Assembly: GCF_011045215.1 (NCBI RefSeq)
Contig: NZ_CP049201.1
DNA from: Escherichia coli
GTDB taxonomy: Bacteria > Pseudomonadota > Gammaproteobacteria > Enterobacterales > Enterobacteriaceae
DNA length: 64,000 bases
Direction: 5' to 3' (one strand)
Within the stretch, counting starts at the first letter, position 1. Each line of letters opens with the position of its first letter. Below, one piece after another: positions 36,301-45,300 of the stretch. Made by a program: the position numbers.

Positions 36301-39300
36301 GTTCAACTCGAATACAATAATAATATTAACAGTAGTATCAGTTATTTCTCTGATCTCTTTAGTCATTTGGGAGTCGACCTCAGAGAACCCGATTCTTGAT
36401 CTCAGTTTGTTTAAGTCCCGTAATTTCACCATTGGTATTGTGAGTATCACATGCGCGTATTTATTTTACTCTGGAGCGATCGTCCTTATGCCGCAGTTAC
36501 TCCAGGAAACGATGGGGTATAATGCGATATGGGCCGGACTTGCTTATGCGCCCATCGGCATCATGCCACTATTAATTTCACCTTTGATAGGACGTTATGG
36601 CAACAAAATAGACATGCGGGTGTTGGTGACATTCAGTTTTTTGATGTATGCGGTTTGCTATTACTGGCGTTCTGTGACATTTATGCCAACGATTGATTTT
36701 ACAGGTATCATTTTGCCGCAGTTTTTTCAGGGATTCGCCGTTGCCTGTTTCTTTTTACCCTTAACAACGATTTCGTTTTCAGGCTTGCCAGATAATAAAT
36801 TTGCCAATGCCTCGAGTATGAGTAATTTTTTTCGTACCTTGTCAGGATCAGTTGGTACGTCGTTGACAATGACGCTGTGGGGACGACGCGAATCGTTACA
36901 CCATAGTCAGTTGACAGCAACCATCGATCAATTTAACCCCGTGTTTAATTCATCGTCACAAATTATGGATAAATACTATGGTTCGCTTTCAGGAGTTCTT
37001 AATGAAATTAATAATGAAATAACCCAGCAGTCACTTTCTATTTCTGCAAATGAGATTTTCCGTATGGCGGCTATTGCTTTTATCTTACTTACGGTTTTGG
37101 TTTGGTTTGCGAAACCGCCGTTTACAGCGAAAGGCGTTGGGTGATGGTAAAAGCAGGGGGTTATAGCGGGTAAGACCGGGGATCTTAAGTCTGCGCCATC
37201 GGCAGCATCGCTCACCCAGGGAAAGGATTGCGATGCTGCGTTGAAACGTTATTAACGGCCTTTTGCCAGATATTGCTCCATCTCTTCTTCCGGCACCATT
37301 CCACCTCCCGTCGCCCACACCAGATGAGTGGCATTACGCAGTTGTTCTGCGCTGAAACCGTGCATCTGTTGGTAACTTACTGATGCACACACGCGCTGAG
37401 GTCCGGCCATACCCGCCAGTGCCGAAGGTTCAAGACGAATACCTTCTTCCTGCGCCAGCCAGCCAAGCATGTCATACATGGTTTGATCGCTAAGGGTATA
37501 GAAGCCATCCAGCAGACGCTCCATTGCCCGCCCGACAAAGCCTGATGCGCGACCAACTGCAAGGCCATCCGCTGCGGTAAGGTTGTCGATACCAATATCC
37601 TGAACAGAAATCTGATCGTGTAATCCTGTATGGACGCCTAACAACATACAAGGGGAGTGCGTTGGTTCGGCAAAAAAGCAGTGAACATGATCGCCAAACG
37701 CCAGTTTAAGCCCGAATGCGACGCCACCAGGACCACCGCCAACACCACACGGCAGATAGACAAACAGAGGGTTATCAGCATCGACGATACGGCCTTGCTG
37801 GGCAAATTGCGCTTTAAGACGCTGGCCAGCGACGGAATACCCAAGGAACAACGTGCGGGAATTTTCGTCATCAATAAAGAAACAGTTCGGGTCAGACTGC
37901 GCTGCTTTACGTCCTTCCTCGACGGCAACACCATAATCTTGCTCATATTCCACGACCGTAACGCCATGGCTGCGCAGTTTCGCTTTTTTCCATGCCCGGG
38001 CATCAGCAGACATATGCACTGTCACCTTAAAGCCAATGCGGGCGCTCATAATGCCGATTGATAACCCCAGATTTCCGGTTGAGCCCACAGCAATGCTGTA
38101 TTGGCTAAAGAACTGTTTAAACTCCGGAGAAAGCAGTTTGCTGTAGTCATCATCAAGCGTCAGCAACCCCGCTTCCAGAGCCGGTTTTTCTGCATGTGCC
38201 AGGACTTCATAAATCCCGCCGCGTGCTTTTATGGAGCCGGAAATGGGCAAATGGCTATCTTTTTTCAGTAACAGTTGCCCGCTGATCGGTTGTTGATATT
38301 CCTTTTCCAGCCGTTTTTGCATAGCCGGAATGGCAACCAGTTCTGATTCAATAATCCCCCCAGTGGTAGCAGTTTCAGGAAATGCTTTTGCCAGATAGGG
38401 TGCAAAACGGGATAAGCGCGCATGGGCGTCCTGAACATCCTGTTCGGTCAGGCCAACATAAGGTAAACCTTCAGCCAATGAGGTCGTGCCAGGATTAAAC
38501 CAGGTGGTTTCTTTAAGAGCAACCAGATCCTTTACCAACGGATACTGGGCGATGAGCGAGTTCATTTTAGCGTTTTCCATAGTACGTCTCTTTGCGCTTA
38601 GATGATAAATGACAGCAGGAATGTGCCCGCCAGAGCGACGACTGAAGCGATAAATGTCGCTGTCGTATAGTATTTAAATGTTTCATTGAGCGTAGCGCCG
38701 CAATATTGCTTCACCAGCCAGAAAAGCGAGTCCGTAACGATCGTGCAGCCAATCGCGCCTGAACCGATAGCAATCGCAATAATTTCCGGGATGATGTCGG
38801 GATACAGCGGCAGCACAATGATCCATATTTATATTTTCTTCTCCAGGTTGGCGATGCCAGTTGGCATGTTTTACTTACTTGCCTATATGGTTACTCGTTG
38901 GCGAGAACAGAGGCGGAATTGGGGACAATTGTCCGGGAATTATTGTTATTTTTTATTGTATTGCCGTGTCAGGTGATAGGGCGTTGGATCTCGCCAGTGA
39001 CGTCTGTTTCTGCTACAGTGCCCGTTTTACGGCAAACGGCTTGGGTATGGCTTCATTAAAGGATGTCGCACGCCTGGCGGGAGTGTCGATGATGACAGTC
39101 TCCCGGGTGATGCATAATGCAGAATCTGTGCGTCCTGCAACGCGTGACCGCGTATTGCAGGCAATCCAGACCCTGAATTATGTTCCTGATCTTTCCGCCC
39201 GTAAGATGCGCGCTCAAGGACGTAAGCCGTCGACTCTCGCCGTGCTGGCGCAGGACACTGCTACCACTCCTTTCTCTGTTGATATTCTGCTTGCCATTGA

Positions 39301-42300: not shown

Positions 42301-45300
42301 TCGGGATATATGCGCCCTGGCAAAAGAGTATGAGATCGCCATGCTGTTGGTGACTAAAGGTGCAGAAGGGGTGGTGGTCTGTTATCGAGGACAAGTTCAC
42401 CATTTTGCTGGAATGTCTGTGAATTGTGTTGATAGCACGGGGGCGGGAGATGCGTTCGTTGCCGGGTTACTCACAGGTCTGTCCTCTACGGGATTATCTA
42501 CAGATGAGAGAGAAATGCGACGAATTATCGATCTCGCTCAACGTTGCGGAGCGCTTGCAGTAACAGCGAAAGGGGCAATGACAGCGCTGCCATGTCGACA
42601 AGAACTGGAATAGTGAGAAGTAAATGGCGAAGTCGCTCTTATCTCTAAATAGGACGTGAATTTTTTAACGACAGGCAGGTAATTATGGCACTGAATATTC
42701 CATTCAGAAATGCGTACTATCGTTTTGCATCCAGTTACTCATTTCTCTTTTTTATTTCCTGGTCGCTGTGGTGGTCGTTATACGCTATTTGGCTGAAAGG
42801 ACATCTAGGGTTGACAGGGACGGAATTAGGTACACTTTATTCGGTCAACCAGTTTACCAGCATTCTATTTATGATGTTCTACGGCATCGTTCAGGATAAA
42901 CTCGGTCTGAAGAAACCGCTCATCTGGTGTATGAGTTTCATCCTGGTCTTGACCGGACCGTTTATGATTTACGTTTATGAACCGTTACTGCAAAGCAATT
43001 TTTCTGTAGGTCTAATTCTGGGGGCGCTCTTTTTTGGCTTGGGGTATCTGGCGGGATGCGGTTTGCTTGACAGCTTCACCGAAAAAATGGCGCGAAATTT
43101 TCATTTCGAATATGGAACAGCGCGCGCCTGGGGATCTTTTGGCTATGCTATTGGCGCGTTCTTTGCCGGCATATTTTTTAGTATCAGTCCCCATATCAAC
43201 TTCTGGTTGGTCTCGCTATTTGGCGCTGTATTTATGATGATCAACATGTGTTTTAAAGATAAGGATCACCAGTGCGTAGCGGCGGATGCGGGAGGGGTAA
43301 AAAAAGAGGATTTTATCGCAGTTTTCAAGGATCGAAACTTCTGGGTTTTCGTCATATTTATTGTTGGGACGTGGTCTTTCTATAACATTTTTGATCAACA
43401 ACTTTTTCCTGTCTTTTATGCAGGTTTATTCGAATCACACGATGTAGGAACGCGCCTGTATGGTTATCTCAACTCATTCCAGGTGGTACTCGAAGCGCTG
43501 TGCATGGCGATTATTCCGTTCTTTGTGAATCGGGTAGGGCCAAAAAATGCATTACTTATCGGTGTTGTGATTATGGCGTTGCGTATCCTTTCCTGCGCGC
43601 TGTTCGTTAACCCCTGGATTATTTCATTAGTGAAGCTGTTACATGCCATTGAGGTTCCACTTTGTGTCATATCCGTCTTCAAATACAGCGTGGCAAACTT
43701 TGATAAGCGCCTGTCGTCGACGATCTTTCTGATTGGTTTTCAAATTGCCAGTTCGCTTGGGATTGTGCTGCTTTCAACGCCGACTGGGATACTCTTTGAC
43801 CACGCAGGCTACCAGACAGTTTTCTTCGCAATTTCGGGTATTGTCTGCCTGATGTTGCTATTTGGTATTTTCTTCTTGAGTAAAAAACGCGAGCAAATAG
43901 TTATGGAAACGCCTGTACCTTCAGCAATATAGACGTAAACTTTTTCCGGTTGTTATCGATAGCTCTATATCCCTCAACCGGAAAATAATAATAGTAAAAT
44001 GCTTAGCCCTGCTAATAATCGCCTAATCCAAACACCTCATTCATGTTCTGGTACAGTCGCTCAAATGTACTCCGGATACACGGTTCGCTGATTTCCAGGA
44101 CATTGTCGTCATTCTGCGACCTGTCCCGTGTATCACGGGCCTGCGAATTCATCAAGGAATGCATTGCGGAGTGAAGTATCGAGTCACGCCATATTTCGCT
44201 ATCAGGATTCTGTGTGATGGTTACATCGCCCGGCCCAGGGCTGTTTAGTCATCAGCGCTTTCTGACAGTGCTGAGATTTCAACCTGTTGCAGTAAAAATG
44301 AGTAGATATAAGGCAAATGTGCTGCCAAACCCATCTTTGACGGGGTGAAGGTAGATTTCGTTTGAAGGGTATCTGGTGTCCCCTGCAGGAATCGAACCTG
44401 CAATTAGCCCTTAGGAGGGGCTCGTTATATCCATTTAACTAAGAGGACAATGCGGCATGAGTATACCCGCTAATGGACTGCGGGGTAAGTACGCTGCCGC
44501 TCGATTGCTTAAACCCTCGCCATTTATGCCGGGTTTTTATCATTTTTCTTAATGTTTTCCGCACGTTCTGCTTTTTGGCGTGCTTCTGCTTTGCGCTTGT
44601 TGCTCATGTCGTTACGAATCTGTGCATGACTCATTAACGCGAAGATAAAGGTGCCGCCGCAGATGTTCCCCGCTAAAGTAGGTAGTGCGAAGGGCCAGAT
44701 GAAATCGCTCCAGTGCAGCGTACCGTTAAACACCAGATAGAGGATTTCAACAGAACCGACAACGATGTGAGTGGTGTCACCCAGGGCAATAAGCCAGGTC
44801 ATCAATATAATCACCACAATCTTTGCCGCACCCGCTGCAGGAAACATCCATACCATAGTGGCGATCAGCCAGCCGGAAATGATCGCGTTGGCAAACATCT
44901 CGCTGGGGGTGTTCTTCATCACATCCATGCCGATTTTGACAAATGCATCGCGAGTTTCTTCATTGAAGATAGGCATATATTCAAATGCCCACGCCGCAAT
45001 ACCTGTCCCGAGAATATTACCCAGCAGCACGACGCCCCATAACCGCATAAGTAAGCCAACGTTGCTCATTGTCGGTTTTTGCATGACGGGTAGTACCGCA
45101 GTCACGGTGTTTTCGGTAAATAATTGCTGGCGGGCCATAATGACGATAATAAAACCAAAGGTATAACCGAGATTCTCCAGCAAGAAGCTGCCCGGCACAC
45201 CTTCCAGTTCGACATGAAATATCCCTTTTGCCAGTAATGAAGCGCCCATCGACAGACCCGCCGCAATGGCTGACCACAGTAGTGCCATTGCGTCGCGTTC

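What the first reader, a model, noticed from the sequence alone, without database searches (positions are those of the whole stretch)
38817..44373. csc sucrose-utilisation island (cscR, cscA, cscK, cscB) between dsdA and argW
A roughly 5.5 kb block carries a LacI-family repressor, a GH32 invertase, a fructokinase and a LacY-like sucrose symporter. It sits where K-12 has dsdC-dsdX and, further on, the CPS-53 prophage. This is the chromosomal csc regulon described in sucrose-positive E. coli lineages, so it is a strain-defining accessory locus rather than a new one. It predicts a Suc+ phenotype. I saw no integrase, IS element or direct repeat at either junction, so how it was acquired is not evident from this window.
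Basis: partly seen in the sequence, partly recalled or inferred. Interest (0 to 1): 0.45.

Follow-up and report, generated by a model that had tools for sequence, protein, structure and literature searches.

The report
Known E. coli csc sucrose locus
This is the well-described chromosomal sucrose-utilisation gene set (cscR, cscA, cscK, cscB) that about half of complete E. coli genomes carry next to the argW tRNA gene in place of dsdC and most of dsdX; it is intact here and ordinary, and published data for strains with only this locus show slow growth on sucrose at best.

Summary
Window 38816-44373 (5,558 bp) has no K-12 counterpart. K-12 homology stops inside dsdX at 38815 and resumes at the last base of argW at 44374.

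The block holds four intact genes:
- cscR, 39047-40042 (+)
- cscA, 40050-41483 (-)
- cscK, 41699-42613 (+)
- cscB, 42685-43932 (+)

The published regulatory layout is also present: two perfect GTTAACGTTAAC operators and a CRP-like site between cscA and cscK. CscR, CscA and CscB are 100% identical to common RefSeq proteins, and the CscK allele is itself seen on at least 1,000 contigs.

The same dsdX'-csc-argW arrangement occurs in 2,645 of 5,426 complete E. coli genomes. It is described in the literature for strains EC3132, W and EDL933. The locus is therefore a lineage trait, not a strain-defining one, and it is already known.

1. "Suc+" overstates the prediction. Published csc+ scr- isolates were slow, very slow or negative on sucrose, and none was fast.
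2. The junctions are not featureless. The cscB-argW spacer holds a decayed scrap of a DUF4942 gene, of the kind found in a CP4-type island. The right breakpoint is exactly the argW attachment point, where other strains carry prophages or islands.

A Citrobacter amalonaticus locus at 80% identity limits the cassette proper to 39006-44000.

The parts
37252..38580 (-). dsdA, D-serine ammonia-lyase. It is orphaned because dsdC is absent and dsdX is truncated. It is a flank, not part of the insert.
   Evidence: TIGR02035, 809 bits. 99.1% DNA identity to K-12. The protein differs from K-12 DsdA by A72T, L133P, T417A and N435E.
38598..38816 (-). dsdX remnant: the last 72 codons only, a pseudogene.
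   Evidence: NF007395 profile positions 374-445 of 445. RefSeq annotates the same piece as 'incomplete; missing N-terminus'. K-12 homology ends at 38815.
38816..39005 (.). Left junction filler of 190 bp with no identified origin. It includes the cscR upstream region.
   Evidence: It is absent from K-12 and from the Citrobacter csc locus. Within E. coli it matches only at this junction: 2,691 genomes, median one place per genome. A 12-bp indel is polymorphic here.
39047..40042 (+). cscR, the LacI-family sucrose repressor, 331 aa.
   Evidence: PF00356 and PF00532. 100% aa identity to WP_001301925.1, which one RefSeq record names 'sucrose operon repressor CscR'. 328 of 331 residues identical to a CscR allele named by one source as from E. 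coli W.
40050..41483 (-). cscA, the GH32 sucrose hydrolase (invertase), 477 aa.
   Evidence: PF00251 and PF08244. TIGR01322, 479 bits against a cut-off of 356. Motifs WMNDPNG at 36, RDP at 160 and WEC at 214. 100% identity to WP_000194517.1. Closest solved structure is 7vco, E = 1.5e-173.
41518..41529 (.). CscR operator copy 1, the palindrome GTTAACGTTAAC, on the cscA-proximal side.
   Evidence: The two perfect matches in the intergenic region are the only ones in the 64-kb window, even allowing one mismatch. Chance expectation is 0.09. This fits the two 12-bp inverted repeats attributed to Jahreis 2002 in PMC11251922.
41563..41578 (.). CRP-like site TGCGATGAATATCACA, lying between the two operators.
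   Evidence: One mismatch to TGTGA-N6-TCACA, and the only such site in the intergenic region. The literature places a cAMP-CRP site next to the cscA -35 region.
41582..41593 (.). CscR operator copy 2, GTTAACGTTAAC.
   Evidence: The two copies are 64 bp apart start to start (families D7 and I2).
41699..42613 (+). cscK, the PfkB-family fructokinase, 304 aa.
   Evidence: NF006957 fructokinase equivalog, 505.7 bits against a cut-off of 450. GAGD motif at 248. One aa different from each of WP_001274876.1 and WP_001625589.1. The exact allele is seen on at least 1,000 contigs.
42685..43932 (+). cscB, the LacY-family sucrose:H+ symporter, 415 aa.
   Evidence: PF01306 at 2.6e-193. Aligned to LacY structures at E = 1e-63, with D129, R147, R300, H320 and E323 opposite LacY E126, R144, R302, H322 and E325. 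100% identity to WP_001197016.1.
44021..44307 (-). Decayed internal scrap of a DUF4942 gene, a gene of CP4-type integrative islands. RefSeq calls a 50-aa ORF at 44012-44164.
   Evidence: tblastn with a 281-aa DUF4942 protein: residues 76-151 at 51% identity (E = 9e-19), and a weaker frame-shifted piece for residues 38-65 (E = 0.007). Pfam PF13708, E = 2.8e-5, 24.3 bits, just under the 25-bit cut-off. About 75% DNA identity to full-length DUF4942 genes at other sites in E. coli genomes.
44374..44448 (-). argW, tRNA-Arg(CCU). Its 3' end is the right-hand boundary of the block and an attachment site for integrative elements.
   Evidence: ARAGORN and Rfam RF00005. K-12 homology resumes at its last base. 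Other strains carry prophages or islands between argW and the spacer, with 15-23 nt argW duplications.

Best explanation
This is an intact copy of the E. coli chromosomal csc (non-PTS sucrose catabolism) regulon in its usual place.

How it works, from established knowledge of the family and from the motifs seen here:
- CscB imports sucrose together with a proton.
- CscA, a cytoplasmic GH32 invertase, splits sucrose into glucose and fructose.
- CscK phosphorylates the fructose.
- CscR, a LacI-type repressor, binds the two GTTAACGTTAAC palindromes in the divergent cscA/cscKB control region and releases at high sucrose.
- cAMP-CRP adds catabolite control.

The repressor and both operators are wild type, and published csc-only isolates are slow growers. 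The expected phenotype is therefore slow, low-affinity growth on sucrose rather than rapid fermentation.

Because the block replaces dsdC and about 84% of dsdX, the strain should be unable to induce D-serine catabolism, although dsdA remains.

Historically the block is one ancient replacement shared by all csc+ E. coli examined, since the dsdX breakpoint is the same everywhere. It was joined on the argW side to the remains of an older tRNA-integrated island. It is not itself a mobile element.
For: Shown here:
- Gene content, order and intactness.
- Catalytic and transport residues are present.
- Two perfect operators and one CRP-like site occur only in the cscA-cscK spacer.
- Three of the four proteins are identical to RefSeq proteins named CscR, CscA and CscB, and all four exact sequences are seen on about 1,000 or more contigs.
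- Breakpoints against K-12 are defined.
- The identical arrangement is in 2,645 of 5,426 complete genomes, and the identical dsdX breakpoint in 2,658.
- There is a DUF4942 scrap in the spacer.
- Other strains carry prophages or islands inserted between argW and this spacer.

From papers:
- The regulon and its location (PMC3032704).
- Regulation and slow phenotype (PMC11251922).
- Loss of dsdC and dsdX, and CscR repression of cscBKA in EHEC (PMC7486766).
Against: - No phenotype can be measured here. In PMC11251922, 5 of 29 csc+ scr- isolates did not grow on sucrose at all, 4 of them with no visible defect in the locus.
- No sigma-70 consensus promoter was picked up in the cscA-cscK spacer by the simple scan. 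This is expected for CRP-dependent promoters but is not positive evidence.
- The order of events behind the DUF4942 scrap is inferred, not shown.
Confidence: 0.95

Rival explanations
1. The locus is present and intact in sequence but phenotypically silent in this strain. The strain would be Suc-negative, for example through tight CscR repression or poor outer-membrane entry of sucrose.
For: PMC11251922: 5 of 29 csc+ scr- isolates could not use sucrose, 4 of them with no obvious genetic defect, and none of the 29 was scored Suc+. Here CscR and both operators are wild type.
Against: In the same study 23 of 29 did grow, slowly. All four proteins here are common, apparently functional alleles.
Confidence: 0.2
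2. The block is a still-mobile genomic island or integrative element that entered at argW by site-specific recombination.
For: The right boundary coincides exactly with the argW 3' end. A DUF4942 scrap of island type lies in the spacer. The site is a hotspot where other strains hold integrases.
Against: - There is no integrase, excisionase or IS element in 38816-44373.
- There is no second copy of the argW 3' end within 3 mismatches anywhere in the window, and no flanking direct repeats.
- The left end is a truncation inside dsdX with no microhomology.
- Elements that do integrate at argW in other strains sit between argW and the spacer and leave csc outside them.
Confidence: 0.03
3. It is a PTS-type (scr-like) sucrose system, in which the GH32 enzyme acts on sucrose-6-phosphate. 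This is what the automatic name 'sucrose-6-phosphate hydrolase' suggests.
For: CscA scores above the cut-off for TIGR01322 'sucrose-6-phosphate hydrolase'. Most RefSeq records use that name.
Against: The adjacent transporter is a LacY-family proton symporter, not a PTS EII. No scrA or scrY is present in the block. Newer RefSeq annotation names the same gene 'sucrose hydrolase'. TIGR01322 is a subfamily-level model, not an equivalog.
Confidence: 0.02

Closest known systems
The csc regulon of E. coli EC3132, W and O157:H7 EDL933 (Bockmann 1992; Jahreis 2002; Archer 2011, PMC3032704)
   Same: Same four genes, same order and orientation, and same control region with two 12-bp palindromes and a CRP site. 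Same chromosomal position between argW and a truncated dsdX. The junction and spacer are 97-98% identical in O157:H7 genomes. CscR is 328/331 identical to an allele named as from strain W.
   Different: Only allelic differences:
- A 12-bp indel upstream of cscR.
- A few amino-acid differences.
- No prophage at argW in this window. The W genome paper lists a lambdoid element at argW, and K-12 has CPS-53 there.
The csc locus of Citrobacter amalonaticus (GCA_002919495.1)
   Same: Same gene order and orientation (R+, A-, K+, B+). 80.3% DNA identity over window 39006-44000. CscR belongs to the same 90%-identity cluster.
   Different: It sits between yjfF and fbp in a core-gene context, not at argW/dsd. 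It lacks the 190-bp left filler and the DUF4942 spacer.
The scr (PTS) sucrose system of enteric plasmids, conjugative transposons and chromosomes
   Same: A sucrose catabolic cluster with a GH32 hydrolase, a fructokinase and a LacI-type repressor. GH32 genes on plasmids match cscA at about 73% over 870 bp.
   Different: scr uses a PTS EII transporter and the ScrY porin, and confers rapid growth (PMC11251922). This locus has a LacY-type symporter and no porin.
The lac operon (LacY and LacI)
   Same: CscB aligns with LacY over nearly its full length, with the proton and sugar-coupling residues conserved. CscR is a LacI-family repressor acting on palindromic operators.
   Different: The substrate is sucrose. 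The hydrolase is GH32, not GH2. The promoter layout is divergent, and the repressor gene is convergent with cscA.

Membership tests
E. coli chromosomal csc regulon | Four genes cscR, cscA, cscK and cscB, with cscA divergent from cscKB and cscR convergent with cscA. | tested here: met
   The layout is identical to RefSeq loci annotated cscR/cscA/cscK/cscB.
E. coli chromosomal csc regulon | CscB is a LacY-family oligosaccharide:H+ symporter with conserved coupling residues. | tested here: met
   PF01306 at 2.6e-193. D129, R147, R300, H320 and E323 lie opposite LacY E126, R144, R302, H322 and E325. E270 sits three residues from the LacY E269 column in this alignment.
E. coli chromosomal csc regulon | CscA is a GH32 enzyme with the three GH32 catalytic motifs as I recall them from general knowledge of the family: WMNDPNG (nucleophile Asp), RDP and EC (acid/base Glu). 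| tested here: met
   PF00251 and PF08244. The motifs are at residues 36, 160 and 214.
E. coli chromosomal csc regulon | CscK is a PfkB-family fructokinase. | tested here: met
   NF006957 equivalog, 505.7 bits against a cut-off of 450. GAGD motif at 248.
E. coli chromosomal csc regulon | LacI-type CscR, with two 12-bp inverted-repeat operators and a CRP site in the cscA-cscK spacer. | tested here: met
   PF00356 and PF00532. Two perfect GTTAACGTTAAC copies against 0.09 expected by chance. TGCGATGAATATCACA at 41563-41578. Binding itself was not tested.
E. coli chromosomal csc regulon | Location between argW and dsdA, with dsdC lost and dsdX truncated. | tested here: met
   The same junction is present in 2,658 complete genomes.
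E. coli chromosomal csc regulon | Sucrose-inducible growth on sucrose, slow in the wild type. | not testable with these tools
   The phenotype needs culture.
tRNA-integrated genomic island or integrative element | An integrase gene next to the tRNA. | tested here: not met
   No integrase lies in 38816-44373 or beside argW. Other strains do have intS or other tyrosine recombinases there.
tRNA-integrated genomic island or integrative element | Direct repeat of the tRNA 3' end (attL/attR) bounding the element. | tested here: not met
   The only match to the argW 3' 21-mer within 3 mismatches is argW itself. No flanking direct repeats were found.

The most novel reading that the evidence does not exclude
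The sequence preserves a readable record of how csc entered E. coli. A foreign fragment of about 5.2 kb, made of 190 bp of unknown origin plus a cassette orthologous to the Citrobacter yjfF-fbp csc locus, was joined by illegitimate recombination. One end joined to the middle of the DUF4942 gene of a CP4-type island already resident at argW. The other end joined to codon ~374 of dsdX. This deleted the island's end, its attR, dsdC and most of dsdX. The island was later almost wholly deleted. On this reading a Citrobacter-like lineage would be the donor, rather than the recipient as PMC11251922 suggests. argW prophages that pick up csc, as in the four GenBank 'phage' records, would be a route for spread within the species.
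Probability: 0.3. Interest if true: 0.25.

Novelty: already known. Interest (0 to 1): 0.1.

Why it matters
The locus matters mostly as annotation and phenotype prediction. It marks the strain as belonging to the roughly half of E. coli that traded inducible D-serine catabolism for slow sucrose use. That trade-off has been linked to niche: gut and EHEC strains versus urinary-tract strains (PMC7486766).

The same architecture is present here: cscA, then antisense cscR, then dsdX' and dsdA, all readable on one strand. EHEC can regain D-serine tolerance through deletions that place dsdA under the cscA promoter. That route is in principle open here too, although this strain's DsdA carries a private L133P change.

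Nothing here opens a new question.

Tried and rejected
- **Att-type repeat.** I looked for a second copy of the argW 3' end, using a 21-mer with up to 3 mismatches. None was found.
- **Flanking repeats.** I looked for direct or inverted repeats bounding either the block or the 39006-44000 cassette. Only short chance pairs appeared.
- **Microhomology at the breakpoints.** None was found at either the dsdX or the argW breakpoint.
- **Origin of the 190-bp left filler.** It matches nothing in E. coli genomes except this junction.
- **Known RNAs in 37000-46000.** Only argW was found.
- **Consensus promoters.** The simple scan found none in the control region. This is uninformative for CRP-dependent promoters.
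- **Plasmid-borne csc.** The only full-length hits are chromosome-sized or very large records filed as plasmids. True plasmids carry only a distant (73%) GH32 gene.
- **NT1F25 as an ancestral state.** I considered that the CP4-type island next to cscB in strain NT1F25 might be continuous with the DUF4942 scrap. I rejected this, because a 23-nt argW copy and the whole spacer lie between that island and cscB. The NT1F25 island is therefore a later insertion.
- **Primary papers.** Jahreis 2002 and Moritz & Welch 2006 are not held in the library. Their content is cited second-hand from PMC11251922, PMC3032704 and PMC7486766.
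Full report
**What is in the sequence**

The ORF list, tRNA scan and HMM scans against NCBIfam and Pfam give this map, left to right:
- emrK and emrY (+).
- dsdA, 37252-38580 (-).
- A 72-codon C-terminal remnant of dsdX, 38598-38816 (-), covering profile positions 374-445 of 445.
- cscR (+). The mechanical ORF starts at a TTG at 38861, but the LacI helix-turn-helix begins at residue 65 of that ORF. The RefSeq start is the ATG at 39047, giving 331 aa and an end at 40042.
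- cscA, 40050-41483 (-), 477 aa, GH32 N- and C-terminal domains.
- cscK, 41699-42613 (+), 304 aa, fructokinase equivalog above its cut-off.
- cscB, 42685-43932 (+), 415 aa, LacY_symp at 2.6e-193.
- A 441-bp spacer.
- argW, tRNA-Arg(CCU), 44374-44448 (-).
- yfdC, mlaA, a low-GC 422-aa ORF at the yfdF position, and fadL.

None of the four csc genes has an internal stop.

**Breakpoints**

blastn of 36000-48500 against K-12 MG1655 2,462,000-2,484,000 shows two homologous stretches:
- 99.1% identity up to window 38815, which is K-12 2478967, inside dsdX.
- 95.2% identity from window 44374, which is K-12 2466383, the last base of argW.

The non-K-12 block is therefore 38816-44373, or 5,558 bp.

In K-12 the corresponding interval holds three things: the CPS-53 prophage with its 15-nt attR (pawZ), 95 bp of spacer, and dsdC plus the first ~1,120 nt of dsdX. 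Neither junction shows microhomology. There is no second copy of the argW 3' end and no flanking repeats.

**Function, as far as sequence can show**

- CscA has the GH32 motifs WMNDPNG (36), RDP (160) and WEC (214). Its closest solved structure is 7vco at E = 1.5e-173.
- CscB aligns with LacY structures at 1e-63. D129, R147, R300, H320 and E323 lie opposite LacY E126, R144, R302, H322 and E325.
- CscK has the PfkB GAGD motif.
- The cscA-cscK spacer contains two perfect copies of the palindrome GTTAACGTTAAC, at 41518 and 41582. These are the only matches in the 64-kb window, against 0.09 expected by chance. Between them lies TGCGATGAATATCACA, one mismatch from the CRP consensus.

This is the arrangement that PMC11251922 attributes to Jahreis et al. 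2002: two 12-bp inverted repeats flanking the cscA promoter, and a CRP site next to its -35 region.

The inferred mechanism is the published one. CscB symports sucrose with a proton. CscA hydrolyses it. CscK phosphorylates the fructose. CscR represses the regulon, and cAMP-CRP activates it.

The automatic name 'sucrose-6-phosphate hydrolase' comes from a subfamily-level model. It does not fit a locus whose transporter is a symporter, and newer RefSeq annotation says 'sucrose hydrolase'.

**How common it is**

- megablast of 38400-44600 against 5,426 complete E. coli genomes finds the whole stretch, contiguous, in 2,645 of them. The best identity is 99.6%.
- The dsdX'/cscR junction itself is in 2,658 genomes. 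In the sampled genomes without csc, homology stops at the same base inside an intact dsdX.
- CscR, CscA and CscB are identical in amino-acid sequence to WP_001301925.1, WP_000194517.1 and WP_001197016.1. CscK is one residue away from each of two RefSeq alleles.
- All four exact protein sequences are seen on about 1,000 or more contigs.

In the literature, the locus and its position are described in the E. coli W genome paper (PMC3032704), the EHEC D-serine paper (PMC7486766) and a 2024 survey (PMC11251922). [quoted passage not shown] The locus is therefore already known, and it is a lineage marker, not a strain marker.

**Phenotype**

In PMC11251922, none of 29 csc+ scr- isolates was scored Suc+. 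Twenty-three were slow or very slow. Five did not grow, four of them without any visible defect in the locus.

Here the repressor and both operators are wild type. The best prediction is slow, high-concentration-dependent growth, with roughly a one-in-five chance of no growth. Rapid fermentation would require scr, which cannot be assessed from this window.

The companion prediction is loss of inducible D-serine use, because dsdC is gone and dsdX is truncated (PMC3032704, PMC7486766).

1. The cscB-argW spacer is not anonymous. RefSeq calls a 50-aa 'DUF4942 domain-containing protein' at 44012-44164 (-). Pfam gives PF13708 at E = 2.8e-5, just under its cut-off. tblastn with a full-length 281-aa DUF4942 protein from an island carrying CP4-type genes aligns residues 76-151 at 51% identity (E = 9e-19). 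A weaker, frame-shifted piece covers residues 38-65 (E = 0.007). Together they span about 44021-44307. The DNA is about 75% identical to full-length DUF4942 genes at other chromosomal sites. The spacer therefore holds an internal, decayed scrap of an island gene. Its 5' side lies 66 bp from argW, and its 3' half is missing about 20 bp from the end of the csc cassette.

2. The spacer is the native downstream flank of argW in csc+ strains. Later elements insert between argW and the spacer, duplicating 15-23 nt of the tRNA 3' end:
   - an IntS-type prophage remnant in strain TUM13936;
   - a prophage with P22-type genes in ECL27829;
   - a roughly 29-kb array in NT1F25, comprising a small integrative element plus an island with CP4-type and defence genes.

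   In this window the site is empty.

3. A Citrobacter amalonaticus genome carries cscRAKB in the same order between yjfF and fbp. DNA homology to the window runs only from 39006 to 44000, at 80.3%. This delimits the cassette. It leaves 190 bp on the left (38816-39005, which in E. coli genomes matches only at this junction) and 373 bp on the right as E. coli-specific joints. An identity of 80% is ordinary inter-genus divergence, not recent transfer.

4. Four GenBank 'phage' records carry csc at a record end, next to the excisionase or integrase of an argW prophage. These may reflect imprecise prophage boundaries or packaging of adjacent host DNA. I cannot tell which.

**Most likely history (inferred)**

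A single old replacement event joined a csc-bearing fragment to a DUF4942 gene of an island then resident at argW, and to dsdX. It removed everything between them. That island was later deleted down to the scrap.

The block is not a mobile element now. It has no integrase, no att repeat and no IS element.

**Verdict**

- Novelty is nil and interest is low.

The only mildly new material is the reading of the junction scars and the Citrobacter ortholog as evidence on the direction and mode of acquisition.

Noticed in passing
window 37252-38580 (-): The orphan dsdA encodes A72T and L133P, which are absent from K-12 and from three other csc+ strains. The exact protein (QIF12796.1 / WP_164475573.1) is recorded on a single 5.41-Mb contig in a collection of about 15 billion proteins. 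A Leu-to-Pro change could be damaging, which would fit relaxed selection on a gene that has lost its activator and transporter. That interpretation is speculative.
   Followed up: partly
window 46686-47954 (-): A 422-aa ORF at the yfdF position, with 31-34% GC. It has no Pfam or NCBIfam hit. Its length varies between strains: 352 aa in K-12, and 343, 399, 416 and 440 aa elsewhere. The K-12 alignment is broken and overlapping here, which suggests internal repeats or indels. The exact sequence is on only 3 contigs.
   Followed up: partly
window about 38991/38992 (dsdX'-cscR spacer): A 12-bp segment, CGTCGAGAATAT, present about 55 bp upstream of the cscR ATG in another csc allele (phage record ON470594.1), is absent here and in strain Tig207. 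O157:H7 and many other genomes are 12 bp longer over this stretch. The indel lies in the likely cscR promoter region. Its effect is unknown.
   Followed up: partly
L008 9960-14955 (Citrobacter amalonaticus GCA_002919495.1): A same-order cscRAKB cassette sits between yjfF and fbp at 80.3% DNA identity to the window. This level of divergence argues against the suggestion in PMC11251922 that Citrobacter copies are recent transfers from E. coli. I did not check whether this genome belongs to the set that paper discusses.
   Followed up: partly
L011 1887-30892 (E. coli NT1F25): Between cscB and argW this strain has a roughly 29-kb array. It contains a small element with a rolling-circle replication protein, ParA and an integrase. 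It also contains an island with CP4-type genes carrying QatD, a SLATT-domain protein with a nucleotide-binding-domain protein, DUF262 and a DEAD/DEAH helicase pseudogene, which are candidate anti-phage genes. Its csc allele is unusually divergent: 92% in the spacer and 85% in the left filler.
   Followed up: no
L006 147-5714; L007 1-4324: GenBank 'phage genome' records (ON470594, ON470608, ON470622, ON470589) include the csc genes at their ends, next to argW-prophage excisionase or integrase genes. They are either mis-bounded prophages or evidence that argW prophages package the neighbouring csc locus.
   Followed up: partly
window 42685-43932 compared with 39047-42613: cscB is 43.7% GC. The left filler is also 43.7% and the spacer 45.4%. 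cscR, cscA and cscK are 51-52%, and the whole window is 48.4%. The cassette is compositionally heterogeneous.
   Followed up: no
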